A DNA stretch of 62,824 bases from Gemmatimonadota bacterium. GTDB lineage: Bacteria > Latescibacterota > UBA2968 > UBA8231. Position 1 is the first letter of the stretch. Every line of letters begins with the position of its first letter. Shown here in pieces: positions 3,495 through 18,529 of this stretch. The notes beneath the pieces were generated by a model. The model ran no database searches. It was not told the origin of the DNA and was given only the letters and a program-made list of their open reading frames with translations. The position numbers and the translations under genes are program-made. The stretch covers positions 28,352 to 91,175 of the forward strand of contig JAYOYH010000017.1 of assembly GCA_038153405.1 (NCBI GenBank). The letters run 5' to 3'.

Positions 3495-4757
3495 ATGGCC
3501 TATTCTCAGTTCGATCGGGTGCCCAATCACTACGCCGGTCCCATCATCCAGCGGGTCAAGGATTTTCGCCAGGAAAAAGGGCGGCGTTCGCTGGTTCCGA
3601 CCGCGCTGCAAATCGGTCAGTTGGAGCTACTCATACCGCGCCATTTTGGTTTCTGCTTTGGCGTAGAGCGCGCCATCCACATGGCGTTTTCCATTTTGGA
3701 GAAGCAGCCCAATAAGCGGACCTATCTCGTCAGCGAGATTATTCACAACCCGCTGGTCAACAGCGAGCTCAAGGAGCGCGGCGTCGAGTTCGTCTACGAT
3801 ACAAACGGCCATCGCCAGGTGGGCGAGGACGAGCTCACCAGCGATGACGTGGTGCTCATACCTGCCTTTGGCACCACGCTGCAAGTGGAGGATTCGCTGC
3901 GGGCCAGCGGCATTGATATCGACGATGCGAACTATCGCGAACACTACGATACCACGTGTCCGTTCGTGTCGAAGGTGTGGAAGCGCGGAGAAGAACTGGG
4001 TCGCGAGGGCTACACGATTATCATCCACGGCAAGTATGGGCACGAGGAGACGCAGGCCACGCATTCCCACACAAAGGAGCACGCCAAAACGCTGGTCGTG
4101 CTGGACTGTGAAGAAGCGGAAAAGGTTGCTGCTTTTATCGTAGGCGAAATGAGCGCCGCGGCTTTTCGCGCCGAGTTTGCCGGCAAGTGGTCGGACGGTT
4201 TTGACCCCGAGCGCGATTTGCAGCGCGTTGCGGTCGTCAACCAGACGACCATGTTGGCCGCTGAAACGCAGCGCGTCGCGCAGATACTGTCTGCCGCTAT
4301 GGAGCGACGCTATGGCAGCGAAAATATAGAATACCACTGCGCCGATACCAACGATACGCTGTGCTATGCGACGAATCAGAACCAAAATGCCACGCACGCG
4401 CTGCTGCAGTCAGAGGCCGATCTAGCGCTTATCGTCGGAGGCTACAATAGCTCAAATACGTCGCACTTAGTGGAAATTTGTTCGCAGATGATGCCTAGCT
4501 ATCTCATCGCCAACAGCGACGAGTTGGTCTCTGCGCAGCAGATTCGCCACTTCGACATAGGGCGCAAGGAAGTTGTGTGTGACGAAAGGTGGTTGCCCCA
4601 GAGCCTGCCGCTGCGCATGGTGATCACCTCTGGTGCGTCGTGTCCAGATGTCCTTATGAACCGGGTTATTGAGCGCGTGGTAGAGCTGTGCGGATATGGC
4701 CGTGCAGATGTCGAGCGCGGCCTGAATGCCCTGCGCCTGTTCGAGGAGGCCACATGA
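3495..4757 (+). CDS. ispH: 4-hydroxy-3-methylbut-2-enyl diphosphate reductase
   Basis: FGFCFGVERA, EIIHNP, DTTCPFV, NQTTM, TLCYAT, GGYNSSNT and TSGASCP motifs; AGGAG RBS before ATG 3495. Confidence 0.95.
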   Translation: MAYSQFDRVPNHYAGPIIQRVKDFRQEKGRRSLVPTALQIGQLELLIPRHFGFCFGVERAIHMAFSILEKQPNKRTYLVSEIIHNPLVNSELKERGVEFVYDTNGHRQVGEDELTSDDVVLIPAFGTTLQVEDSLRASGIDIDDANYREHYDTTCPFVSKVWKRGEELGREGYTIIIHGKYGHEETQATHSHTKEHAKTLVVLDCEEAEKVAAFIVGEMSAAAFRAEFAGKWSDGFDPERDLQRVAVVNQTTMLAAETQRVAQILSAAMERRYGSENIEYHCADTNDTLCYATNQNQNATHALLQSEADLALIVGGYNSSNTSHLVEICSQMMPSYLIANSDELVSAQQIRHFDIGRKEVVCDERWLPQSLPLRMVITSGASCPDVLMNRVIERVVELCGYGRADVERGLNALRLFEEAT

Positions 4758-5059
4758 TCGTTGCACTGGTCAAAGGACACGTGGTTTCCTCTGCCAAAGT
4801 GGATAATTTAGAGGGAGAGAAACTGCTGCTAATCGAGATTCTCGCCGCGACGCCCGAAGGGCTCAAGCACACCGACCAACATATGGTGTGCATCGATTCG
4901 GTGCAGGCCGGCGAGGGCGAGTTGGTCGTCGTAGTGCAGGGTTCTTCGGCGCGCATTGCTGCGGGTATGAGCGACGTGCCGGTCGATGCGCTGGCGATAG
5001 GAATTGTCGATTCGCTGCAGGCATTTGGCCGTCAGCTAGCGCTGGAGGTTGTCCAGTGA
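4754..5059 (+). CDS. BMC vertex protein (BMC-P, EutN/CcmL family) 1
   Basis: MIVALVKGHVVSSAK...DSVQAGEGE...QGSSAR...DALAIGIVD; ATGA overlap with the ispH stop. Confidence 0.92.
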   Translation: MIVALVKGHVVSSAKVDNLEGEKLLLIEILAATPEGLKHTDQHMVCIDSVQAGEGELVVVVQGSSARIAAGMSDVPVDALAIGIVDSLQAFGRQLALEVVQ

Positions 5060-5301
5060 AGCGCTGCCGCGTCATCGGCCACGTCGTTGCCAACGCCAAG
5101 CACAGCGTATTGGACGGTCAGAAGATCATGGTCGTCAAGCCCGAGCCCGATGGTCCCATGCAATTGGCGCTGGACGGGGTTGGTGCGGGCATTGGCTCGC
5201 TGGTTATCGTCGCCGAGTCGGGCACGGCGGGCGCTCAGGTGACCGGGTGGGAACATCCGCCGGCGCGCAGCGTCATCGTCGGCATCATAGACGGAGCGTA
5301 A
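5056..5301 (+). CDS. BMC vertex protein (BMC-P, EutN/CcmL family) 2
   Basis: GTG start overlapping the previous TGA; RVIGHVVANAKH...LALDGVGAGIG...VIVGIID. Confidence 0.88.
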   Translation: MKRCRVIGHVVANAKHSVLDGQKIMVVKPEPDGPMQLALDGVGAGIGSLVIVAESGTAGAQVTGWEHPPARSVIVGIIDGA

Positions 5302-5305
5302 CGGT

Positions 5306-5572
5306 ATGAAATTGGGGAAAGTAGTTGGCACGGTCGTTCTATCGCACTGCATCGATTCCTTTCGCGGTCGACCGCTGCATTTGGTAATGAGCGTAAACGA
5401 AGATTTGCAACCTGTCGGCGAAGCGGAGGTCTGCACCACGTGGGAAGCGCGCAGCGAAGGAGAACTCGTCGTATTTGAGGTAGCGCGCGAAGCCGCCAAT
5501 ATCGCCGATCCGGCCATTCCATCGGATGCTTCCATTATCGGCAAAGTGGAAAAGGTGCATATCGAGCGGTAG
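5306..5572 (+). CDS. BMC vertex protein (BMC-P, EutN/CcmL family) 3, divergent
   Basis: MKLGKVVGTVV...EGELV...AREAA...SDASIIGKVE. Confidence 0.85.
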   Translation: MKLGKVVGTVVLSHCIDSFRGRPLHLVMSVNEDLQPVGEAEVCTTWEARSEGELVVFEVAREAANIADPAIPSDASIIGKVEKVHIER

Positions 5573-5657: not shown

Positions 5658-6458
5658 TTAGGGGCCTACCACGCGGTTTTTGAGCTGGCCAATGCCCTCC
5701 AATTCGACGATGACCTCGTCGCCTGGTTTGAGCCAGACCGGCGGTTTGCGCGCAAAGCCGACTCCTTGCGGAGTGCCGGTGAGAATGACGGTGCCTGGCA
5801 GCAGCGTGGTGTCCTGGCTGAGAAAGCTAATGATTTCGGCGACGGAAAAAATCATGTCGCCGGTGGTGTGGTCCTGCATGGTCTGGCCGTTGAGAATCGT
5901 CTTGATGCCCAAGTTTTGCGGGTCGGCAATCTCGTCTGCCGTGACCAGCACCGGTCCAAGGGGGCAGAACGTGTCAAAACCCTTGCCGCGTATCCACTGG
6001 CCGCCGCCGGCATTGAGCTGCCACTTGCGGGCCGATACGTCGTTGGCGCAGGTATAGCCCAGCACGCAGTCCAGCGCATCGTCAACGCGCACATCGCGCA
6101 CTGGTCGTCCAATGACGACGGCCAGTTCGCACTCGTAGTCGACTTCTTCGTCCTGCTGGCAGGCCGGCAGGCGTATGGGGTCGCCGGGGTGGCAGAGCGC
6201 GCTGGTCGGCTTGGCAAAGACGATGGGTAGTTTGGGCTCTTCCATCCCCGACTCGGCGGCGTGCTCCCGATAGTTGAGCCCTATGCAATATATATTGGTC
6301 GGGGCGATGGGGGCTAGTAGCTTGGCAATAGGAGCGGTCGTTCCGCTCGGCGACAGGCCCGCGTAGAGATCGCCTTCGAGTATCTCGGCCTGGCCGCCCT
6401 CGCTTTCCGCGCCGTAGTGCTCGCGGTTTTCGCCATCTAAAAAACGAATAATGCGCAT
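5658..6458 (-). CDS. Fumarylacetoacetate hydrolase (FAH) family protein
   Basis: CIGLNYREH, DYECELAVVIG, NDVSAR, GKGFDTFCPLGP and ILTGTP motifs; GGAGGAG RBS before ATG 6458. Confidence 0.92.
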   Translation of the reverse strand: MRIIRFLDGENREHYGAESEGGQAEILEGDLYAGLSPSGTTAPIAKLLAPIAPTNIYCIGLNYREHAAESGMEEPKLPIVFAKPTSALCHPGDPIRLPACQQDEEVDYECELAVVIGRPVRDVRVDDALDCVLGYTCANDVSARKWQLNAGGGQWIRGKGFDTFCPLGPVLVTADEIADPQNLGIKTILNGQTMQDHTTGDMIFSVAEIISFLSQDTTLLPGTVILTGTPQGVGFARKPPVWLKPGDEVIVELEGIGQLKNRVVGP

Positions 6459-6495
6459 ATGTTCTCCTCCTTTTTTCGCCGCGTTACAGGCGATC

Positions 6496-6566
6496 AAGGT
6501 AGGCGTTGCAGGGCGCGAGTGTCAAGCCGAGGCCAACTTGACGGAGGGGGTGCCCCCGACTATTTT
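6496..6566. promoter_or_regulatory. Divergent sigma70-type promoters for the FAH gene (-) and the BMC core operon (+)
   Basis: (+) TTGACG 6538-6543, 17 nt, TATTTT 6561-6566; (-) TTGACA 6525-6520, 18 nt, TACCTT 6501-6496. Confidence 0.5.
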
Positions 6567-6618
6567 TCTGGGGCTGTATACGCACGTTGCGATATAGACA
6601 TCGAGTGAGGTGAAAAGC

Positions 6619-8046
6619 GTGGCCCATAACGCGAGCGAAGAACAAATTCGCAAAATAGTTGAAGAGGTTGTAAACCGCATTGTCGCAAACGGCAATGGCG
6701 CGTCTCATCGGGCGACCGCTGCCGGCGAGGGCGGCGTGTTCCCCACCATAGATGCTGCCGCGCAGGCGGCCACGCGGGCGCAGGAGCAGCTGGTCGCCAT
6801 GACGCTGGAGCAGCGCCGGTCGATCATCGAGGCCATTCGCCACGTATCGCGCGATCGCGCCGAAGACTTTTCCCGCCGCGCCTTGGATGAGACGGGCATG
6901 GGGCGGCTGGAGGACAAGATTCAGAAACACCGGGTAGCGGCCGATGCGACGCCGGGCATAGAAGATCTCGAAGCCAAGTCGTGGACTGGCGATCATGGGT
7001 TGACCGTGGTCGAGATGGCGCCCTACGGCGTGATTGGGGCGATTACGCCCTCTACCCATCCCGTGCCGACGATGGTCAACAACGCCATCTGTATTATTGC
7101 CGCGGGGAACTCGGTCGTGTTCAACGTGCATCCCGGTGCGAAGAACGTCTCGATGTACGCGGTGCGCCTGCTCAACGAGGCGATTGTCCAGGTCGGCGGA
7201 CCGGCCAATCTGATCACCGCTGTGGCGGAGCCAACCCTAGAGACGGCTAACCAATTGTTCACCCATCCCGGCATCCGCCTCTTGCTGGTTACCGGCGGAC
7301 CCGGCGTCGCCCAGGCTGCCATGGCCAGCCCGAAAAAGGCCATTGTCGCCGGTCCGGGTAACCCGCCCGTCGTCGTCGACGAGACGGCCGACCTCAAAAA
7401 AGCGGCCAGGGATATTATCGACGGCGGTGCCTTTGATAACAATATCCTCTGCCTAGGTGAAAAACAGGTTTTCGTCGTCGACAGCGTAGCCGATGAGCTC
7501 AAGCGCCATATGGTTGACTATAGCGCCTATGAACTCAACGCACAGCAAATTGAAGCGCTGGCTGCCGTAGCCTTTGTCAAAGGGTCCGACGGGCACCCGG
7601 TGGCCAACCGCGAATTGGTTGGTCGCAGCGCGTGGGTGCTGGCCGATCGCATTGGCATCAAGCTGGGCGAATCGCTGCGCATGCTCATCGGCGAGACGCG
7701 CGCTGACCACGTCTTTGTCGAAGAAGAACAGATGATGCCCTTTTTGCCGATCGTGCGGGTGCGCGACGTCGACGAGGGCATTCGCCTGGCGGTTATTTCC
7801 GAGCATGGCTACAAGCACACGGCGATCATTCACTCGCGCAATATCGAAAATATGCACAAGATGGCCTGCGCTGTGGATACGACGATTTTCGTGAAGAACG
7901 GCCCGTCCTTTGCCGGCGTCGGGCTAGGGGGCGAGGGTTTTGGCACCTATTCGATTGCCGGACCGACCGGCGAGGGGCTAACCTCGCCGCGCACGTTCAC
8001 GCGCGCGCGGCGCTGTGCGTTGGTCGACTATTTCCGCATTACCTAA
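6619..8046 (+). CDS. CoA-acylating aldehyde dehydrogenase (EutE/PduP family) with N-terminal encapsulation peptide
   Basis: PYGVIGAITPSTHP, VTGGPGV, AGPGNPPVVVDETAD, catalytic NNILCLGEK, AGPTGEGLTS; N-terminal amphipathic EEQIRKIVEEVVNRI; start GTG 6619 (or 6610). Confidence 0.93.
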   Translation: MAHNASEEQIRKIVEEVVNRIVANGNGASHRATAAGEGGVFPTIDAAAQAATRAQEQLVAMTLEQRRSIIEAIRHVSRDRAEDFSRRALDETGMGRLEDKIQKHRVAADATPGIEDLEAKSWTGDHGLTVVEMAPYGVIGAITPSTHPVPTMVNNAICIIAAGNSVVFNVHPGAKNVSMYAVRLLNEAIVQVGGPANLITAVAEPTLETANQLFTHPGIRLLLVTGGPGVAQAAMASPKKAIVAGPGNPPVVVDETADLKKAARDIIDGGAFDNNILCLGEKQVFVVDSVADELKRHMVDYSAYELNAQQIEALAAVAFVKGSDGHPVANRELVGRSAWVLADRIGIKLGESLRMLIGETRADHVFVEEEQMMPFLPIVRVRDVDEGIRLAVISEHGYKHTAIIHSRNIENMHKMACAVDTTIFVKNGPSFAGVGLGGEGFGTYSIAGPTGEGLTSPRTFTRARRCALVDYFRIT

Positions 8047-8058
8047 ACCGGTGGTGCG

Positions 8059-8358
8059 ATGATATTAGGACAAGTGCGCGGGCGCGTGGTATCGACGGCC
8101 AAAGTCGGCAGTTTAAACGGCAAAAAGCTGTTGATTGTAGAAGTCGTGTCCGTGCGTGAGCACGGCCTAGTGCGCACTGGTCGTGAAATGGTCTGCGTCG
8201 ATGCGGTGCAGGCCGGCGAGGGCGAACTGGTCTTCGTGGTTCAGGGATCTTCGTCGCGCATTGCACCGGATATGCGCGACGTGCCCACCGATGCGGTAAT
8301 CGTCGGCATTGTCGACTCGCTGCATTCGATGGGAAACGCTATGGAGCTGTGCGATTAA
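8059..8358 (+). CDS. BMC vertex protein (BMC-P, EutN/CcmL family) 4
   Basis: MILGQVRGRVVSTAK...DAVQAGEGE...QGSSSR...DAVIVGIVD; close paralog of 4754-5059. Confidence 0.93.
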   Translation: MILGQVRGRVVSTAKVGSLNGKKLLIVEVVSVREHGLVRTGREMVCVDAVQAGEGELVFVVQGSSSRIAPDMRDVPTDAVIVGIVDSLHSMGNAMELCD

Positions 8359-9054
8359 ATGGCGGCAGACGCACTACAGGGCTTGGACCGAGCGGCGATA
8401 GAACAGATCGTGCGCCGCGCCGTCTACGACTTTATGCCCGATGCCCAACTGGGGCGCACGGCCGGTCCCAACCTGTCGCCCGTACCGCGCTTGGTGGTCA
8501 ATATTTCGGCGCGCCATATCCATCTCAACCGCGAAGCCATGGACGTGCTCTTCGGACCGGGCAGCGAGTTGACGGTGCAAAAGGCGCTCTATCAGGAGGG
8601 CGCATTTGCCGCTGAAGAAACGCTATCGGTTTTTGGGCCGCGCAAGCAGGTTATTGCCAACGTGCGCGTCTTGGGGCCACTGCGCGAGTACAACCAGGTC
8701 GAGCTGGCTTTTACCGACGCGCGCTTCTTGGGCATTGATGCGCCGGTGCGGCTCAGCAGCCGCGTCGAGGGTTCTCCGGGGTGCTTCCTCGTTGGGCCGC
8801 ACGGCGGTCTCGAGCTGCGGGAAGGCGTAATTCGCGCCGCCCGACACGTGCATATGAGCCCAGAGGAAGCCGAGTACTACGGCGTGCAGGGGGGCGATCT
8901 CATGCGCTTGGTGATAGATAGTGAGCAGGGCGGCTCCCTGGAAGGGCTGATTTGCCGCGTCAGCAACAAGGAGAAGCTGGAAGTGCACTTAGATACAGAT
9001 GAGGGCAATGCGCTCGATCTGGTGCACGCCCGCAAAGTGTATTTGGAAAAGTAG
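8359..9054 (+). CDS. pduL: Phosphate acyltransferase (PduL family) with N-terminal encapsulation peptide
   Basis: NISARHIHL, VRVLGP, RAARHVHM and VHLDTDEGNA motifs; N-terminal LDRAAIEQIVRRAV. Confidence 0.93.
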   Translation: MAADALQGLDRAAIEQIVRRAVYDFMPDAQLGRTAGPNLSPVPRLVVNISARHIHLNREAMDVLFGPGSELTVQKALYQEGAFAAEETLSVFGPRKQVIANVRVLGPLREYNQVELAFTDARFLGIDAPVRLSSRVEGSPGCFLVGPHGGLELREGVIRAARHVHMSPEEAEYYGVQGGDLMRLVIDSEQGGSLEGLICRVSNKEKLEVHLDTDEGNALDLVHARKVYLEK

Positions 9055-9085: not shown

Positions 9086-9646
9086 ATGTCGGATGCAATC
9101 GGAATGGTAGAAACAGTCGGGCTGGTGGGCATCGTCGAGGCCGGCGATGCCATGGCCAAAGCGGCCAGCGTACAGCTCTTGGGCTGGGACAAGGTCGGTT
9201 CGGGATTGGTTACGGTGTTTTGTTCGGGCGACGTAGCTGCCGTGAAGTCGGCCGTAGATGCTGGATCTACGGCAGCGGCCAAGGTCGGCAAGGTGCACTC
9301 GGTGCACGTGATCCCGCGTCCGCACGAGGAATTGGGCGCCATTATTCCGCACCGCGGCGAGGCGGGCTCATCAGACGGCGTGCGCGCGCTGGGCCTAATC
9401 GAAACGCGCGGTGCCACCGGTGTAATTGAGGCCGCTGATGCGATGAGCAAAGCGGCCGATGTAGATATCGTCAAAGTGCAGGAAATCGGCGGGGGCTACA
9501 TCACCGTGCTGGTCAGCGGCGACGTCGGATCGGTGCAGGCGTCGGTCAGCGCCGGAGCCGAGGCCTGCGCGCGCGTCGGCGAGTTGGTTTCGCAGCACGT
9601 GATCCCGCGTCCGCACGACGATGTGGTCGCCCTCTACTTGAGCTGA
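9086..9646 (+). CDS. BMC shell protein with two tandem BMC domains
   Basis: Two repeats of AIG/ALG-xxETxG...DAMxKAA...GDVxxV...HVIPRPH; AGGAGG RBS. Confidence 0.93.
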   Translation: MSDAIGMVETVGLVGIVEAGDAMAKAASVQLLGWDKVGSGLVTVFCSGDVAAVKSAVDAGSTAAAKVGKVHSVHVIPRPHEELGAIIPHRGEAGSSDGVRALGLIETRGATGVIEAADAMSKAADVDIVKVQEIGGGYITVLVSGDVGSVQASVSAGAEACARVGELVSQHVIPRPHDDVVALYLS

Positions 9647-9661
9647 TAGGAGATACGCACT

Positions 9662-9925
9662 ATGAAAGCACTTGGTATGGTGGAGACGAAGGGCCTGGTA
9701 TGCGTGGTCGAGGCCTTAGATGCAATGCTCAAAACGGCCGATGTGAGCTTCGCCGGCCAGAAGCGCGTCGGCAGCGGCTTCGTCGCCGTGCTCGTCGAGG
9801 GCGATGTGGCAGCGGTTAAAGCCGCCGTTGATGCCGGCGCCAGCGCGGCGCAGCGCGTCGGCGAGTTGCGCAGCGTGCACGTGATCCCGCGTCCGGTGTC
9901 AGACTTGACGCAGCACCTGTCGTAG
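9662..9925 (+). CDS. BMC hexameric shell protein (BMC-H, EutM/PduA-like)
   Basis: ALGMVETKG...DAMLKTA...VGSG...[10 protein letters not shown]...HVIPRP. Confidence 0.95.
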
Positions 9926-9937
9926 TCTGCGCTCCGC

Positions 9938-10432
9938 ATGGCTTCCGTCCTCTACATCGAAGAGGCCGTAATAACGGGCGATATGCTGTCGCGCCGCCAC
10001 GCCGGTGAAGAGCAGGTGTGCGTCGACGAGGGAGCGATTGTCACGCCGACGGGGTGGGACTATCTGCGCCAGAAACGCCTGCCGCTCAGCAGGGGCAAGA
10101 GCCCTGAGCCGGCTACCCCGGCTGCGCAAGCACCCGCTCGGCTCATTGCCGAAGTGGAGGCCCCGCAGATGGATGGGGCGGGGCGCTGCGACCATCCCGG
10201 GCGCTCGTGTGGCTGCCAAACCGAGGAGTTTGGCTCGGGTTATGTCGAGCCCAGTTCGTGTCGCGATTGCGCCATTTACCAGATGAAGAGCCGGGGCGAG
10301 AGTGGGGCCAGCTGTCACGGCTGCAATCGTCGTGCGCTGCTCGACCAGTTGATCGAGTCGGGGCAGGGCGTCGACCCGGAGCAGTTGATCGGTGAGGTGA
10401 CGGCGCTGGTCGTGCACCGCTTGGAGGATTGA
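9938..10432 (+). CDS. BMC-associated hypothetical protein: small N-terminal domain, Cys-rich centre, C-terminal encapsulation-like helix
   Basis: GAIVTPTGWDYLR motif; CDH..CGC, CRDC and CHGC; C-terminal VDPEQLIGEVTALVVHRL; embedded in the operon. Confidence 0.8.
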   Translation: MASVLYIEEAVITGDMLSRRHAGEEQVCVDEGAIVTPTGWDYLRQKRLPLSRGKSPEPATPAAQAPARLIAEVEAPQMDGAGRCDHPGRSCGCQTEEFGSGYVEPSSCRDCAIYQMKSRGESGASCHGCNRRALLDQLIESGQGVDPEQLIGEVTALVVHRLED

Positions 10433-10433
10433 G

Positions 10434-11015
10434 ATGCCCGCCGCTATCGGCCTAATAGAAGTCGAGGGAGTGGCCGGTATTATCGCGGCGGCCGACGCCG
10501 CGCTCAAAGCGGCCGACGTCGAGCTGCTCGGCTGGGAGTCAATCGGCGGGTTTACCACCGTCCTGTTTAGCGGTTCGATCAGCGATGTGGGTGCGGCCTT
10601 GGACAGCGGTCGGGCCGCCGCCGCGCAGGTCGTAGAGCACGTAGTTGCCGCGCCCGTGACACAGCCGCAGGAAGCCTGCCTGCGCTTTGCGAGTTTTCCC
10701 GTTCAAAAAGAAGCCATCGTGCGCGATGGTGCGCTGGGCCTGGTCGAAACCCGCGGCTACGCTGCCCACGTCTACGCCGATGACGATATGGTCAAAGCGG
10801 CTGATGTAGAGGTCGTCAATGTGCTAACGGTGCACAACCGGGTGGTTTGCTCTCTGGTGCAGGGCGACGTCGGCGCGGTGCGCGAGGCCATCGCGCGAGC
10901 CGAAATGCGCCTGCGAGACTATCCACATCTGCTGAGCACGTTGGTCTTGCCACAGCCGCGCCGCGAGGTATTGCAGACCTTTGCCGTGCAGCTGCGAGGA
11001 GAGGGCAGTGTCTAA
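10434..11015 (+). CDS. BMC shell protein with two tandem (divergent) BMC domains
   Basis: AIGLIEVEG...DAALKAA and ALGLVETRG...DDMVKAA...GDVGAV. Confidence 0.9.
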   Translation: MPAAIGLIEVEGVAGIIAAADAALKAADVELLGWESIGGFTTVLFSGSISDVGAALDSGRAAAAQVVEHVVAAPVTQPQEACLRFASFPVQKEAIVRDGALGLVETRGYAAHVYADDDMVKAADVEVVNVLTVHNRVVCSLVQGDVGAVREAIARAEMRLRDYPHLLSTLVLPQPRREVLQTFAVQLRGEGSV

Positions 11016-12159
11016 AGCCATTGGCGTACTCGAGACGCGCGGCATGGCTTCGCTGCTAAACGCCACCGACGCGATGCTAAAAGTATCCGATGTGCGCGTA
11101 GCCGGTCGCCACGGCATTGGTTCGGGTTGGGTGACGGTGGTGATTGAGGGGAGCGTCGCCGACGTACACGCCGCCATTGCCGTCGGCCGAGTCGAAGCTC
11201 AGCGCTACGGAGAGCTCATCGGTGCCGAGGTAATTGCGCGTCCGGACGCGCGTGCTCAGGAGGCGATGCCGCACGGTGCGGCCATCGGTGGCGCTGTATC
11301 GAGCGACGGCCGTGCGCTGGGCGTGGTGGAAACGCAGGGACTATCGCCGCTGATAGCGGCCGCCGATGCCATGGTTAAGGCGGCCGATGTCGACCTGTGC
11401 GGCTGGGCTTTTATTGGAGGTGCGCTGTGCCACGCCGTCGTGCGCGGCGACGTGGCCGCCGTGCAAACGGCCGTCGCGTCTGGCCGTCGCGCGGCAGAGG
11501 GCGTGGGCGCTACCTATGCTACGCTCGTTCTGCCACAGCCCGTCGCCGGCCTCGCGCCGCTGTTGCCGGCCTTGCCTAGCGGCGACGTGGGAGCGGGCGG
11601 TGCACTCGGCGTAGTGGAAACCATAGGTTACGCTACGGTCGTGGCGGTAGGCGATGCGATGGTCAAGGCCGCCGATGTCCAGGTGCGGCGACTGAGCATC
11701 GGCAGCGGCGGGCGCATTGCCGCGCTCGCGGTGGGAAGTTTAGACGCCGTGCAGGCGGCCGTAGGGGCGGGCATGCAGGAGGCTAGAGCCGTAGGTGAAC
11801 TGGACGGCAGCACGCTGGTATCGCGGCCGGACGGCGCCACCATGGCGTGCTTTGCCAGCTCGGTAGAGGGGCCGCGCCGCGCCGCCGCGCGCCGCGCACT
11901 TGGGCTCATAGAGACGCGCAGCACCGTTGCGCTAGTGCGCGCTGTCGACCAGATGTTAAAGGCGGCTGATGTCGAATACGAAGGCAGTTTTAAGGTGGGC
12001 TACTTTTTGACCGCCAGTGTGGTGCGCGGCGATGTCGGAGCCGTCAGGGTAGCTATCGATGTAGGCGCACAGGAAGCGGCAAAGCACGGCGAGCTCGTCT
12101 CTGCCCTCGTCATTCCGCAGCTGTATGGCGACGTCGAACTGCGCCTGCCGCATCAATGA
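11008..12159 (+). CDS. BMC shell protein with four tandem BMC domains
   Basis: Four repeats begin AIGVLETRG, ALGVVETQG, ALGVVETIG and ALGLIETRS, each with D-x-M-x-K; GTG 11008 preceded by GAGGAGAGG, overlapping the upstream gene by 8 nt. Confidence 0.9.
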   Translation: MSKAIGVLETRGMASLLNATDAMLKVSDVRVAGRHGIGSGWVTVVIEGSVADVHAAIAVGRVEAQRYGELIGAEVIARPDARAQEAMPHGAAIGGAVSSDGRALGVVETQGLSPLIAAADAMVKAADVDLCGWAFIGGALCHAVVRGDVAAVQTAVASGRRAAEGVGATYATLVLPQPVAGLAPLLPALPSGDVGAGGALGVVETIGYATVVAVGDAMVKAADVQVRRLSIGSGGRIAALAVGSLDAVQAAVGAGMQEARAVGELDGSTLVSRPDGATMACFASSVEGPRRAAARRALGLIETRSTVALVRAVDQMLKAADVEYEGSFKVGYFLTASVVRGDVGAVRVAIDVGAQEAAKHGELVSALVIPQLYGDVELRLPHQ

Positions 12160-12210: not shown

Positions 12211-13380
12211 ATGGTTCGCATAGACGATTCGGTAATTACGGCACAGGTCTTGCAGGATCGATTGGGCGCCGAGCGCGAAGTCGAGATTTGCCCAATGGCT
12301 AAGCTGACACCTTCAGCACTCGACTTTTTGCGCGAGCGCAGCATTGAAGTAGCGCGCCGCGAGGCCCGTGCCACGGGTGGCACGGCCGTGGCTGCGGCGG
12401 CATCAACGCCGTCGTCGTCGCAACGCCGCGATTTCAAGGGTATCTTCTGTCCCAATATCGTCATCTTCGACAGCGCGGGTCGCATCAACTACGGCGAGAT
12501 GGAGCGCTACGTGAATTGGCTGATCGATGCGGGGATCCACGGGCTCTATCCCAACGGCAGCACGGGCGAGTTCGTGCGCCTGTCGTGGGAGGAACGCCAA
12601 GACGTGGTGCGCCTCATTGCCGAAGTAAACGGTGGCCGCGTGCCCATTCTGGCCGGTGCGAGCGAAGCCAATACGCGCGACGTGCTGAAAATGGCCGAGT
12701 TCTATGCCTCGATTGACGTAGATGCCATTTCGCTGGTCCCGCCCTTTTACTACAAGATTTCCAACGAGAGCCTCTTCGAGTATTTCGCCGAGGTCGCCGA
12801 GCAGTCGCCGCTCGATATTTTGCTTTACAACATACCGCAGTTTACGCAGGAACTTCCGCTGGAACTGATGGAGCGCCTGTTGCCGTACGAGCGCATTTTT
12901 GGCACGAAGGATTCCAGCCGCGATCTACCTCGCTTGATCAATACCATGCACCGTCTGCGCGCCCAGCGTCCCGACTATGTCGTGTTGGTCGGTTGCGAAG
13001 AAATTCTGTTTCCATCGGTAATGATGGGAGCCAGCGGTGGTACGATCGCTACATCCGGTATTGTGCCGGAAGTGATCGTCGAGCTGTATGAGCAGGCCTT
13101 GGTCAACAATGTCGACCGTGCGCGCACGCTGCAGTACCGCATTCTCGATCTGATCAACATCATGTTACTCGGAGTGAATTTCCCCGAGGGCTTTAAGACC
13201 GGGGTTGCCGTGCGCGGTTTTGACGTGGGTCCTGCTCGCGCGTCGACGAGTCCGGGCGAGCAGGAGTATCTGCTTAAACTCGAAGCGCAGATCGGCTGCG
13301 TGCTCAGCGATATGGGCTACTCAGTGCGCGGTGCGCGCGCCTGTCCCGTTACAAACCTGCCGCCTATCGTAGGCCGTTGA
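12211..13380 (+). CDS. DHDPS/N-acetylneuraminate-lyase family class I aldolase with an extra N-terminal domain
   Basis: NGSTGEF, LYNIP and Schiff-base Lys in GTKDSS; ~70-aa N-terminal extension with AKLTPSALDFLR. Confidence 0.88.
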   Translation: MVRIDDSVITAQVLQDRLGAEREVEICPMAKLTPSALDFLRERSIEVARREARATGGTAVAAAASTPSSSQRRDFKGIFCPNIVIFDSAGRINYGEMERYVNWLIDAGIHGLYPNGSTGEFVRLSWEERQDVVRLIAEVNGGRVPILAGASEANTRDVLKMAEFYASIDVDAISLVPPFYYKISNESLFEYFAEVAEQSPLDILLYNIPQFTQELPLELMERLLPYERIFGTKDSSRDLPRLINTMHRLRAQRPDYVVLVGCEEILFPSVMMGASGGTIATSGIVPEVIVELYEQALVNNVDRARTLQYRILDLINIMLLGVNFPEGFKTGVAVRGFDVGPARASTSPGEQEYLLKLEAQIGCVLSDMGYSVRGARACPVTNLPPIVGR

Positions 13381-14474
13381 GCGATTCCTCGGGCGCGCGG
13401 GTCCTCGTCGTTGGCGCGGGTATCATCGGCCGTTCGATCGCCTACTATCTCTGTCGCGCCGGTGCCCATCCCACACTGATTGAAGTGAGCGAAGGGCCTT
13501 CTGATTCTGAAGCCAGTCGCGCTTCGCTCGGAGTTCTTACCCATTTTAGCGGCGGCGCCAGCACGTATGCGCTATTCATACGCGATAGCCATGCCGCACA
13601 TGAGCCGCTAGCCGGCGAGTTAGCTGACGAGACGGGTATCGACGTAGGGTGGCGGCCGCTCGGTGGTATTGATCTGGTCATCGACGACGAGGGCGAAGAG
13701 CAGGTCGAATCGCTCTGGCGCGAAGGCTGTGCGCGCGGGGTGCCGCTCGAACGCTTGGCCGCGGCCGACGTGCAAAAAATGGAGCCTTCCGTTTCGCGCG
13801 TCGTGCGCTGGGGCCTCTTCTTTCCCGAAGACCAACGCGTTGCTCCGCTGTTGCTGGGAAAGGCGTTGCTCGAGGGAGCCGTTTCGCGCGGTGCACAGGT
13901 GCACTACGACGAGCGCTTGCTGCAGATCGAAGAGCGCGCCGACGGGAGCTTAGTGGCGCAGACGTCGCGCGCCAAGCGCAGCGCCGATTTTGTCGTGCTG
14001 GCCACCGGCGCTTGGACGGCGCATCTGGCCGAGTCGCTTGGCGCTACTGTCCCCGTGCGGCCGGTGCGCGGACAGCACGGCTGTTTTGCGGGGCCTGCCC
14101 TGCGCCACGTGCTGCGTCAGGGAGGGCATCAACTGCTCTCGAGCGCGCGCGGAACGTTGGTCGGCGCCACGGCCGAAGACGTTGGCTTTATCAACGAGAC
14201 GACGGCGGCCGCCGCGTGCGCGCTGGGCGCCGTTCACGCACAGTTGCTAAGAGGGCCCTGTATCCTGCATTCGCAGGGAGCGGGGCTGCGCGCCAAGCCC
14301 AAGGCCGGGCGTCCGATGATTGGTCCGCTCGCCAATCATCCGCGCATTTTCATTGCGACGGGGCACTATAAAAACGGCGTTCTAATGGGACCGCTAACCG
14401 GACAGATCGTCGCGCGCTGGATGCTCACAGGAGATCCGGGACGCGATATGCAGCCCTTTGTTCCCGAGCGCTAG
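13377..14474 (+). CDS. FAD-dependent amino-acid/amine oxidoreductase (DAO/glycine oxidase-like)
   Basis: VVGAGIIG FAD motif, VLATGAW, PVRGQ and ATGHYKNGVLMGP; TTGA overlap with the aldolase stop. Confidence 0.88.
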   Translation: MSDSSGARVLVVGAGIIGRSIAYYLCRAGAHPTLIEVSEGPSDSEASRASLGVLTHFSGGASTYALFIRDSHAAHEPLAGELADETGIDVGWRPLGGIDLVIDDEGEEQVESLWREGCARGVPLERLAAADVQKMEPSVSRVVRWGLFFPEDQRVAPLLLGKALLEGAVSRGAQVHYDERLLQIEERADGSLVAQTSRAKRSADFVVLATGAWTAHLAESLGATVPVRPVRGQHGCFAGPALRHVLRQGGHQLLSSARGTLVGATAEDVGFINETTAAAACALGAVHAQLLRGPCILHSQGAGLRAKPKAGRPMIGPLANHPRIFIATGHYKNGVLMGPLTGQIVARWMLTGDPGRDMQPFVPER

Positions 14475-14534
14475 TTGGGCGATAGATGGCATCTGCCAGC
14501 GGGATGGAAGACAGGGCACTGCGCAATATTTCGA

Positions 14535-14562
14535 TTCACATTTATTTGTTTTCACATATATT
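14535..14562 (+). promoter_or_regulatory. Putative promoter for the second DHDPS-family gene, with a TTCACAT direct repeat
   Basis: AT-rich island; TTCACA, 16 nt, TATATT; TTCACAT at 14535 and 14551; AGGAGG RBS downstream. Confidence 0.4.
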
Positions 14563-14582
14563 AGGAAATCTAGGAGGACGTA

Positions 14583-15524
14583 ATGACTATTGCGACAAAT
14601 GAGTTAATCGAATCCCTAAATTCCGTCACTTCGATTCCCGTAGTGCCTTTTCGCGGTGGCAAAATCGACTACGACGCCCATGCCAAGAATATCCGCTATT
14701 TGATGGATAACAATCATTTGGATGGGGATCGCCGGCGCGTAATCGGCATCGCCGGCACGAGCTTGATCCACCATATTGGGCGCGACGAACAGGTGCGTCT
14801 GATCGACTTTACCGGCCAACAGATGGCCGGGCGTGGCGTCCTCATGTCCGGTATCGCGCCCAATCCCATTGCCGACGCCGAAGACCTTATTCGCCGCGAA
14901 GCTGCGCTGCCAGTAGCGCCCGACTGCTATCTGGTGATGCCGCTGACGGGCGTGGGCAATGCCGAGGGCATTTTCCAAAACCACTTGGATATGGCCGAGC
15001 GTCTGGGCCGCGAAACGGGTGCGCGTTTTCTGTATTACCTGCGCAACAAGGCCGAGCGCGAGACGGCCGTCCGCTTGCTCAACGAGTCCGAGTATTTTAT
15101 CGGTCTCAAAATTGGCACCGATATCGACGATGTGAAGTCGATTGTAGAGGGCGTCAACGACGGGGCTGGTATCGTCATATGGGGTGTGGGTGATCGCTCT
15201 ACCGGGCCGGCTAGCCGCGGAACGCTAGGTCATACTTCCGGTATTAACGTGGTCTTTGTCCGCGCGTCTGATGCGATTAACAACGCTCAGCGCAGCGGCG
15301 ATCTGCAGGCCTCGCAGCGCGTCGAAGACGAAATTGCCGCCTTTGAGGAAATTCGCTTTCGCGATAGCCGCATGTACAATTACTCCGCCGTGGTTGAGGC
15401 GATGCATATAGTGGGCAGCGATGCGATTGATGGCGGCGATGGCGGCCCATTCAATCCGCGCGTACCGGCTGAAGTGGCGCGCGAAGTGGCGGCAGCCATT
15501 GAGCCCTTGATGCAGTACCACTAG
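14583..15524 (+). CDS. Divergent DHDPS-family (TIM-barrel Schiff-base lyase/dehydratase) protein
   Basis: IPVVPF..GKIDYDA N-terminus, LYYLR Tyr, IGLKIG Lys, GHTSG; AGTS in place of GSTGE. Confidence 0.7.
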   Translation: MTIATNELIESLNSVTSIPVVPFRGGKIDYDAHAKNIRYLMDNNHLDGDRRRVIGIAGTSLIHHIGRDEQVRLIDFTGQQMAGRGVLMSGIAPNPIADAEDLIRREAALPVAPDCYLVMPLTGVGNAEGIFQNHLDMAERLGRETGARFLYYLRNKAERETAVRLLNESEYFIGLKIGTDIDDVKSIVEGVNDGAGIVIWGVGDRSTGPASRGTLGHTSGINVVFVRASDAINNAQRSGDLQASQRVEDEIAAFEEIRFRDSRMYNYSAVVEAMHIVGSDAIDGGDGGPFNPRVPAEVAREVAAAIEPLMQYH

Positions 15525-17608: not shown

Positions 17609-18529
17609 ATGATTTTTCGCTCTATCGCTTTGGTGGTGATGGCTGCCCTGCTGGGCTGTGCAAGTGAGACGGTCGAAGATGCAGCCAGCGCAGAGCGGGT
17701 GAATGTAGTGTGTACGACGGGTATGGTCGCCGATCTGGCACAGCGCATAGGGGGCGACCGCGTTCGGGTCATTGGCCTGATGGGCCCTGGGGTCGATCCG
17801 CACTACTTCAAGGCCTCGCAGGGCGATTTGGCCAACTTGCAGCGCGCCGACCTGATTCTATACAATGGCCTCTTTTTAGAGGGCAAGATGCAGGACATCT
17901 TTGACAAAATGGCGCGCGGGAAGAAGGTCGTCGCCGTGGCGGATGCCATCGAGAAAGAACGCCTGCGCCAGCCCGCCGAATTCGAGGGACACTACGATCC
18001 GCACATCTGGTTTGACGTGGCTCTGTGGAGTGAGACAATCGACGCCGTAGTGCGCGCGCTGAGCGAAGTCGATCCAGCGGGTGCGCAGATTTTCGACCAA
18101 AATGGCGCGGGCTATCGCCAAGAACTGCTCCAGTTACACGCTTGGGTTGGTCAACAGGTTGAACTGGTGCCCAACGAACAGCGCGTGCTGATTACGGCAC
18201 ACGATGCCTTCGGCTACTTTGGCCGCGCCTACGGCATAGAAGTTATGGGTCTACAGGGTATTTCTACCGTGGCTGAATACGGCGTCAACGATGTAACGAA
18301 GCTGGTCGATCTGATTTCGCGGCGCAAAATACGCGCCATATTTGTCGAGAGCAGCGTGTCTGAGCGCTCTATTGAAGCGGTGCGCCAGGGTTGTTTAGAG
18401 CGCGGTCACCAAGTTGCAATCGGCGGCACGCTCTATTCGGACGCGATGGGCGAGGCCGGCAGCGGTGCGGATACGTACGTCGGCATGGTGCGCCATAACG
18501 TAGAGACGATTGCAGGGGCTTTGCGATGA
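17609..18529 (+). CDS. troA: Mn/Zn/Fe ABC transporter substrate-binding lipoprotein (TroA/MntA)
   Basis: LLGC lipobox, [20 protein letters not shown] and LYSDAMG motifs. Confidence 0.92.

What the first reader, a model, noticed from the sequence alone, without database searches (positions are those of the whole stretch)
12211..13380. Aldolase shares a ~50-aa N-terminal module with the Cys-rich protein
Seen: RIDDSVITAQVLQDRLGAEREVEICPMAKLTPSALDFLRERSIEVAR aligns by eye with YIEEAVITGDMLSRRHAGEEQVCVDEGAIVTPTGWDYLRQKRLPLSR (9938 protein) and is joined to the DHDPS barrel by an Ala/Ser linker. Inference: a docking module that recruits the aldolase into the compartment via the adaptor. Its presence is direct evidence that the aldolase belongs to the BMC system.
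Basis: partly seen in the sequence, partly recalled or inferred. Interest (0 to 1): 0.7.

Follow-up and report, generated by a model that had tools for sequence, protein, structure and literature searches.

The report
Shell-docking domain on microcompartment aldolase
A 50-residue domain shared by an aldolase and a cysteine-rich protein in this bacterial microcompartment gene cluster is real and was already noted in print; it resembles the shell-binding end of the EutQ protein, so it likely anchors each protein to the compartment shell directly rather than linking the two together.

Summary
In detail: 15/46 identities, E 3e-6, reached by 0 of 20,000 shuffles. The module is a folded, selected ~50-aa domain, present twice in this genome. 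It is already in print: Sutter et al. 2021 (Supplementary file 4, MUF2 type) describe this Cys protein and say its N-terminal domain recurs in the nearby pfam00701 aldolase; the locus fits MUF2. The adaptor mechanism is not supported: 16 of 65 genomes with the module-aldolase show no convincing Cys protein, five single-contig ones hold only one module copy, and the module stays under purifying selection there. The module is homologous to the N-termini of EutQ and EutT and the C-termini of TIGR02536 proteins and, weakly, PduM. In Salmonella EutQ this segment (residues 9-41) associates with the shell, and EutQ1-99 is monomeric (Yang 2025). Aldolase orthologs without the module mostly carry a C-terminal encapsulation peptide (146/171); none of 117 with it do, though this is one evolutionary event. 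Best reading: a shell-docking domain that replaced the encapsulation peptide, with the Cys protein as a parallel shell-to-cargo linker. Binding was not shown here. BMC membership is likely, on circumstantial evidence.

The parts
12211..13380 (+). Class I (DHDPS/NAL-family, PF00701) aldolase, 389 aa, with N-terminal module and no C-terminal encapsulation peptide
   Evidence: GAGGA ribosome-binding-like motif upstream of the ATG
12214..12357 (+). Module on the aldolase (residues 2-49): predicted strand-helix-strand-helix-strand domain; T33, P34, D38 invariant, T10 and L14 nearly invariant
12358..12426 (+). Variable low-complexity linker (residues 50-72)
12433..13293 (+). DHDPS-family barrel (residues 75-361) with GSTGE 116-120, Y206 and the putative Schiff-base lysine K233 (12907-12909)
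   Evidence: roles of these residues from established family knowledge
9938..10432 (+). Cys-rich MUF2 protein, 164 aa: module, linker, six-cysteine domain, C-terminal encapsulation peptide; likely shell-to-cargo linker
9947..10093 (+). Module on the Cys-rich protein (residues 4-52)
   Evidence: pLDDT 84-95 over residues 1-50
10181..10324 (+). Cys-rich middle domain; C84, C93, C108, C111, C126, C129 kept in 44-52 of 52 aligned sequences
10370..10429 (+). Predicted C-terminal encapsulation peptide of the Cys protein (helix 147-163)
   Evidence: the profile used was trained partly on these peptides
10434..11015 (+). Two-domain BMC shell protein that travels with the module-aldolase
11008..12159 (+). 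Four-domain BMC shell protein directly upstream of the aldolase; its distribution matches the module-aldolase better than the Cys protein's does
9086..9925 (+). Second two-domain BMC protein (9086-9646) and BMC-H (9662-9925)
6610..9054 (+). CoA-acylating aldehyde dehydrogenase (6610-8046, N-terminal EP-like helix), BMC-P (8059-8358), PduL-type phosphotransacylase (8359-9054)
4757..5572 (+). Three BMC-P (EutN/CcmL) genes

Best explanation
The module is a small folded domain related to the N-terminal end of EutQ, and it likely attaches whatever protein carries it directly to the microcompartment shell. On the aldolase it has likely replaced the C-terminal encapsulation peptide that sister aldolases use, so the enzyme would be held at the shell on its own, probably at the two-domain and four-domain shell proteins encoded beside it (partner inferred from gene linkage only). 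There it would cleave a 2-keto-3-deoxy sugar acid to pyruvate and an aldehyde, possibly lactaldehyde, for the CoA-acylating dehydrogenase and PduL (substrate inferred). The Cys-rich protein carries the same module plus an encapsulation peptide, so it would act in parallel as an EutQ- or PduM-like shell-to-cargo linker, not as the aldolase's receptor. Shown here: homology, fold prediction, selection, gene linkage, module/peptide exclusivity, independence from the Cys gene. Inferred: shell binding, which shell protein, which face, the substrate.
For: (1) Homology to tested proteins. A profile built without them ranks only BMC proteins in the top 8 of 2,650 ORFs from seven characterised BMC regions: C. 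difficile TIGR02536 C-terminus E 3.6e-8, E. coli EutT N-terminus 6e-6, Enterococcus EutQ-like cupin 2e-4, C. difficile EutT 8e-4, E. coli EutQ 1.5e-3, Salmonella PduM C-terminus 4e-3, then two at 0.07 and 0.11; 0 of 2,000 shuffles reach each; hhalign 95% EutT, 91% EutQ, 82% PduM. (2) In Salmonella, EutQ lacking residues 9-41 goes with the cargo and loses the shell, EutQ lacking 62-99 stays with the shell, H1/H2 does not bind encapsulation peptides, and EutQ1-99 is monomeric (PMC12487888 sections 8, 9, 12). Removing EutQ 1-100 abolishes EutM pull-down (PMC4827028 passages). (3) Of 288 aldolase orthologs, 0 of 117 with the module have a C-terminal peptide and 146 of 171 without it do; a second, independent peptide profile also finds 0 of 117. 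(4) The two shell genes are upstream in 68 of 68 loci, the Cys gene in 51 of 68; the four-domain shell gene is in 64 of 65 module-aldolase genomes. (5) Five single-contig genomes have the aldolase module as their only copy, and in the two mapped the cassette lies megabases from the main locus; selection persists in that clade.
Against: Homology to EutQ is moderate (14-22 bits; 42 aligned columns) and was tested on E. coli EutQ, while the experiments used Salmonella EutQ. Function is transferred across remote homologs. The peptide-for-module swap is one event (clade 100/100), not repeated evolution, and the root is unsure. Both aldolase sets were the top 120 hits of two queries, so forms with both or neither feature may be missed; some orthologs have neither. 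The peptide profiles are training-dependent (the second finds only 2 of 24 Cys-protein peptides). PduM, a weak homolog, colocalises with cargo rather than shell when PduB1-37 is deleted (PMC9132943). Kosakonia PduM and the Ilyobacter flavoprotein did not score above shuffles. Yang 2025 also found the EutQ linker 42-61 needed for shell association. The aldolase substrate is untested.
Confidence: 0.6

Rival explanations
1. One reading: the two modules bind each other, and the Cys-rich protein's encapsulation peptide pulls the aldolase into the compartment.
For: The two genes share the domain and lie 1.8 kb apart; they co-occur in 49 of 65 module-aldolase genomes; the Cys protein has a peptide and the aldolase has none.
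Against: 16 of 65 genomes show no convincing Cys protein, five single-contig ones have no second module, and the module is still constrained there. The Cys gene persists without the aldolase in four inspected loci. EutQ1-99 is monomeric.
Confidence: 0.12
2. The module is a core-assembly element: it binds other cargo, itself, or a flexible extension of a shell protein, and so condenses the oligomeric aldolase into the enzyme core as an encapsulation peptide would.
For: It replaces a peptide on the aldolase. PduM stays with the cargo and is proposed to sit between PduB1-37 and cargo (PMC9132943). Tandem and double copies exist (P0139, P0082).
Against: EutQ H1/H2 shows no NMR shift with encapsulation peptides, and EutQ without it stays with the cargo. 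The module-aldolase travels with two shell genes, not with the core enzymes.
Confidence: 0.18
3. The module is not a targeting device but a ligand-sensing or stabilising domain used by BMC proteins; the aldolase then reaches the compartment some other way, for example through its conserved C-terminal tail, or stays cytosolic.
For: Invariant T-P-x-x-x-D motif could be a ligand site. Sutter 2021 suggested ligand binding for an EutQ-like extension on a pfam02866 protein. The C-terminal tail is conserved.
Against: The domain sits on unrelated enzymes and non-enzymes whose only shared feature is the BMC. Its deletion in EutQ changes localisation.
Confidence: 0.1

Closest known systems
MUF2 metabolosome (Sutter et al. 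2021, PMC8217296, Supplementary file 4)
   Same: [quoted passage not shown]
   Different: The passage read gives no function for the domain, does not link it to EutQ, EutT, TIGR02536 or PduM, and does not mention the peptide-bearing sister aldolases or the clade without the Cys protein.
EutQ N-terminal H1/H2 region (Yang et al. 2025, PMC12487888; Held et al. 2016, PMC4827028)
   Same: Homologous ~45-aa two-helix segment followed by a flexible linker; shown there to associate with the shell.
   Different: EutQ continues with a peptide-binding H3/H4 region and a cupin; here the module is fused to an aldolase barrel or to a Cys domain plus peptide. MUF2 has no EutL-type partner identified here.
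EutT N-terminus and TIGR02536 (eut_hyp) C-terminus
   Same: Best-scoring homologs in model loci (21-29 bits; hhalign 95% for EutT; NCBIfam TIGR02536 positions 174-202, E 0.006).
   Different: No experiment on these segments was found in the searches run.
PduM (PF15953)
   Same: N-terminal peptide plus a C-terminal segment resembling the second half of the module (E 4e-3; hhalign 82% over 27 columns; Atlas lead 0.77 with 12% PF15953); known to help join shell and core.
   Different: Similarity is weak and partial, and one of three PduM sequences failed. PMC12108088 states PduM has no known homology outside Pdu.
Encapsulation peptides
   Same: Terminal, linker-attached, BMC-specific; mutually exclusive with the module on this aldolase family.
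   Different: The module is a ~50-aa alpha/beta domain, not a 15-20-aa amphipathic helix.
DHDPS/NAL-family 2-keto-3-deoxy-acid aldolases (archaeal KDG aldolase 4uxd, E. coli YagE)
   Same: Best solved relatives of the barrel (E 2.5e-38, 1.3e-33); catalytic motif residues present.
   Different: Remote relatives only; below every NCBIfam equivalog cut-off; substrate unknown.

Membership tests
MUF2 metabolosome | AldDH and PTAC in the main locus | tested here: met
   6610-8046 NF011927 above cut-off; 8359-9054 PF06130
MUF2 metabolosome | pfam00596 aldolase with C-terminal peptide in a satellite with a BMC-H | tested here: met
   G000:C20:27552-28082, about 1 kb from BMC-H C20:29089; peptide 13.9 bits
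MUF2 metabolosome | Six-Cys protein between BMC-H and BMC-T with C-terminal peptide, sharing its N-terminal domain with a pfam00701 aldolase | tested here: met
MUF2 metabolosome | Double and quadruple BMC fusions; lone satellite BMC-H with C-terminal extension | tested here: met
   156-aa BMC-H in L119
MUF2 metabolosome | BMC-P triplet of purple, grey and orange clades plus an extra copy | tested here: inconclusive
   Four BMC-P genes counted; clades not assigned
MUF2 metabolosome | AldDH closest to the PVM type | not tested
   No AldDH tree was built
EutQ H1/H2-type shell-binding domain | Sequence homology to EutQ residues ~2-46 | tested here: met
   E 1.5e-3 among 2,650 ORFs, 0 of 2,000 shuffles, hhalign 91%; moderate strength
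EutQ H1/H2-type shell-binding domain | Two helices followed by a flexible linker | tested here: met
   Predicted helices 11-18 and 34-43; variable linker
EutQ H1/H2-type shell-binding domain | Physical association with shell proteins | not testable with these tools
   Needs experiment
Encapsulation peptide | 15-20-residue amphipathic helix | tested here: not met
   Folded alpha/beta domain; peptide profile scores 1.0 bit on the aldolase
DHDPS/NAL class I aldolases (PF00701) | Barrel with G-x-T-G-E motif, active-site Tyr and Schiff-base Lys | tested here: met
   PF00701 E 3e-55; G116, T118, G119, E120 and K233 in 117 of 117 module-clade sequences
DapA (dihydrodipicolinate synthase) equivalog | TIGR00674 score above 206 | tested here: not met
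   147 bits

The most novel reading that the evidence does not exclude
Metabolosomes share one unrecognised ~50-aa shell-docking domain, a second targeting code beside encapsulation peptides. It is carried by EutQ, EutT, TIGR02536 proteins, PduM, the peptide-bearing RpiB-like proteins and the MUF2 Cys protein. Many BMC types encode a protein combining it with a peptide as their shell-to-cargo linker, and enzymes can swap a peptide for it, as this aldolase did. This would give PduM its missing homologs and explain how Gram-positive Eut compartments assemble although their EutQ lacks H1/H2: in C. difficile the domain is on the TIGR02536 protein and EutT instead.
Probability: 0.4. Interest if true: 0.8.

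Novelty: new variant of a known kind. Interest (0 to 1): 0.5.

Why it matters
The shared domain itself is published, so the finding as written is not new. What the follow-up adds is a testable identity for it. How metabolosome cargo is joined to the shell is only partly solved, and engineering relies almost wholly on aggregation-prone encapsulation peptides. If this domain is a portable shell anchor, it offers a soluble tag for placing enzymes on shells, unifies several orphan BMC proteins (EutQ, EutT, eut_hyp, PduM, RpiB-like proteins), and marks the class I aldolase as an aldehyde-producing enzyme of MUF2 compartments in uncultured Latescibacterota.

Tried and rejected
Complex prediction of the module with the two- and four-domain shell proteins: no verdict, score 0.00 in both runs, controls not folded; no evidence either way. 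The module-with-module pair was not predicted, so it stays open computationally. Fold searches gave nothing clear: Foldseek had no match at E<=0.001; best VIA Z 5.4, rmsd 2.1, 52 aligned, to the Cas1 N-terminus, within background. PDB sequence search with the module profile: nothing below E 0.48. Pfam has no model for the module. ESM Atlas: top score 0.84, lead only. Rejected: chance similarity; module as a classical peptide; obligate aldolase-Cys pair; DapA identity. Kosakonia PduM, Ilyobacter flavoprotein and C. difficile EutQ did not score above shuffles. Two Cys-domain hits in genus g20 (E 5e-4, 8e-4, each with an internal stop) were treated as chance. Tree outgroups were too distant to root it. 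Earlier scan findings: two look-ups, nothing returned. Literature: eight searches found no paper uniting these domains; subscription papers, bioRxiv supplements, one PVM paper that was not held, and most of the Sutter supplement (only part 3 of 6 of file 4 read, plus term searches) were not seen and may already state it.

Full report
Observation. The 389-aa ORF at 12211-13380 is a PF00701 aldolase whose barrel starts at residue 75. Its residues 4-49 align without gaps to residues 7-52 of the 164-aa ORF at 9938-10432 (15/46 identical, E 3e-6). Neither the module-only score (72; shuffle mean 20.4, maximum 51) nor the whole-protein score (75) was reached in 20,000 shuffles. Profiles built from one family detect the other. 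The genome holds two copies only. Across 76 related loci the module is conserved (0.6-0.8 per block) and the linker is not (0.35); dN/dS is 0.07-0.18 against 0.32-0.47. AlphaFold2 predicts a compact domain, mean pLDDT 87.6, with helices 11-18 and 34-43 between short strands; the same element is the best-predicted part of the Cys protein.

Context and prior art. Close relatives are titled Ca. Latescibacterota or Gemmatimonadota. The locus has four BMC-P genes, an acylating aldehyde dehydrogenase, PduL, a BMC-H, two two-domain and one four-domain BMC proteins, with a class II aldolase plus BMC-H and a lone extended BMC-H elsewhere. This is the MUF2 type of Sutter et al. 2021 (PMC8217296; passages of the main text, part 3 of 6 of supplementary file 4 and term searches seen). 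[quoted passage not shown] The six cysteines are confirmed.

Is the Cys protein the aldolase's adaptor? In 151 genomes of the phylum, 65 have an aldolase with the module (64 full length, one N-terminal fragment). Sixteen of them (14 of genus g20, G054, G059) show one module match and no convincing Cys domain (two weak hits with internal stops discounted). Five single-contig g20 genomes, 97-100% complete, have one strong module copy even at E<=1; the main BMC loci of two of them contain no Cys gene or module, and the aldolase sits megabases away with the two- and four-domain shell genes. The module remains constrained in this group (dN/dS 0.12, 13 loci). Conversely six genomes have the Cys gene without an aldolase hit, and in the four inspected the aldolase is missing from the locus. 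The two shell genes are upstream of the aldolase in 68 of 68 loci with at least 2.5 kb of flank, the Cys gene in 51; the four-domain gene was found in 64 of the 65 genomes. These genomes are related, so the counts describe about one lineage without the Cys gene plus two genomes of another family, not 16 independent losses.

What else carries the module. A search of 1.84 billion representatives gave 971 at E<=0.001. Of the 150 seen, 81 are RpiB-like proteins, 25 Cys proteins, 11 aldolases and 33 unclassified, mostly fragments. 59 of 69 full-length RpiB-like carriers have an N-terminal peptide by an independent profile, and 0 of 69 match the C-x-T/S-G-x-G pattern I recall for active RpiB. Within the phylum the module was found in 114 of 130 genomes with BMC-P and 2 of 21 without, both 78% complete (hand count). 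Of ten RpiB-like carriers inspected, four lie in BMC operons and six had no shell gene detected in the stretch fetched. Against 2,650 ORFs from seven characterised BMC regions, a profile built without them ranked eight BMC proteins first: C. difficile TIGR02536 (E 3.6e-8), E. coli EutT (6e-6), an Enterococcus EutQ-like cupin (2e-4), C. difficile EutT (8e-4), E. coli EutQ (1.5e-3), Salmonella PduM (4e-3), an Enterococcus GRM hypothetical protein (0.07) and Listeria PduM (0.11). Each beat 2,000 shuffles; Kosakonia PduM, the Ilyobacter flavoprotein and C. difficile EutQ did not. Profile comparison gave 95% (EutT), 91% (EutQ) and 82% (PduM, 27 columns), with 0 of 150 column shuffles reaching the EutQ or PduM scores. 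These targets were chosen partly from my recall of EutQ and EutT sequences, then tested on fetched sequence.

What is known of the homologs. Yang et al. 2025 (PMC12487888; abstract, sections 8, 9, 12 read) show that Salmonella EutQ without residues 9-41 stays with cargo and loses the shell, that EutQ without 62-99 stays with the shell, that H1/H2 shows no NMR shift with encapsulation peptides, and that EutQ1-99 is monomeric; they propose binding at the EutM/EutL interface, and note that the 42-61 linker is also needed. Held et al. 2016 (PMC4827028; passages) lost EutM pull-down on removing EutQ 1-100 and placed the site on the putative cytosolic face, so the face is unsettled. For PduM, passages of PMC9132943 and PMC12108088 show a role in joining shell and core, colocalisation with cargo when PduB1-37 is missing, weak residual association without its peptide, and a statement that it has no known homologs outside Pdu. 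Sutter's supplement separately mentions EutQ-like homology for an extension on a pfam02866 enzyme and for a short SPU6 protein, so parts of the wider link were glimpsed.

Module versus peptide. Orthologs at about 50% identity lack the module, and all six found in the phylum lie directly upstream of a two-domain BMC gene; 35 of 55 metagenome loci of this type show a shell gene, many of the rest being short contigs. Among 288 orthologs, 0 of 117 with the module have a C-terminal peptide and 146 of 171 without it do; three of the other 25 are truncated or frameshifted members of the module clade. A second profile again finds 0 of 117 but only 2 of 24 Cys-protein peptides, so sensitivity depends on training. 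The module aldolases form one clade (100/100, stem 0.92; 45 rows after removing near-duplicates; root unsure). This is one swap, sampled from two top-120 lists.

Mechanism. Most likely (0.6) the module docks its carrier on the shell. The aldolase would use it in place of a peptide, probably at the adjacent two- and four-domain proteins; the Cys protein, with module and peptide, would be a parallel shell-to-cargo linker. The barrel keeps the catalytic motif residues and is nearest to 2-keto-3-deoxy-acid aldolases. Cleavage of L-2-keto-3-deoxyfuconate to pyruvate and lactaldehyde is a known route (PMC11199699 passages) and would fit a PVM-like dehydrogenase, but the substrate is my inference. 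Rivals: core assembly or binding to shell extensions (0.18), module-module docking through the Cys protein (0.12), ligand or stabilising role (0.10). No binding was demonstrated here.

Verdict. Observation confirmed and already known; BMC association likely but circumstantial; adaptor mechanism not supported. The link to the EutQ shell-binding segment, its spread over EutT, TIGR02536, PduM and RpiB-like proteins, and the module-for-peptide swap were not found in eight literature searches, with the gaps listed under Tried and rejected. Interest 0.5.

Noticed in passing
window 10434-11015 and 11008-12159: The two-domain and four-domain BMC genes are adjacent in 68 of 68 loci with enough flank. 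Together they make six BMC domains, so they may form a 2+4 hetero-pseudohexamer; in the window they are flanked by the two module-bearing genes.
   Followed up: partly
L103-L112; P0051-P0150: RpiB-like proteins with peptide-linker-module-RpiB architecture that lack the recalled catalytic cysteine motif (0 of 69); probably non-catalytic linker scaffolds, some encoded away from shell genes.
   Followed up: partly
L125:15261-15986, 13816-14577, 17926-18393: In C. difficile the EutQ-like cupin lacks the module but the TIGR02536 protein and EutT carry it; this may answer Yang 2025's remark that Gram-positive EutQ lacks the assembly helices.
   Followed up: partly
L120:20570-21061: The Salmonella PduM C-terminus resembles the second half of the module (E 4e-3; hhalign 82%), although PduM is described as having no outside homologs.
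   Followed up: partly
window aldolase C363 and C378: Two cysteines after the barrel are kept in both aldolase clades (116-117 of 117 and 117-118 of 120); possible metal site or disulfide.
   Followed up: no
window 13377-14474 and 14583-15524: An FAD-dependent oxidase (57 of 76 loci) and a second, divergent DHDPS-like protein without the module (50 of 76) follow the aldolase and persist in some loci that lost it.
   Followed up: no
window 5658-6497 (-): An FAA-hydrolase gene on the opposite strand inside the BMC locus (34 of 76 loci); best NCBIfam match is 2,4-didehydro-3-deoxy-L-rhamnonate hydrolase, below cut-off, hinting at non-phosphorylative deoxysugar catabolism.
   Followed up: no
P0082, P0139: Proteins with two module copies: an EutT-like protein (by eye) with one at each end, and a fragment with tandem repeats.
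   Followed up: no
G000:C20:27552-29316 and C14:15507: Satellite BMC genes of this genome: class II aldolase with C-terminal peptide near a BMC-H, and a lone BMC-H with C-terminal extension.
   Followed up: yes
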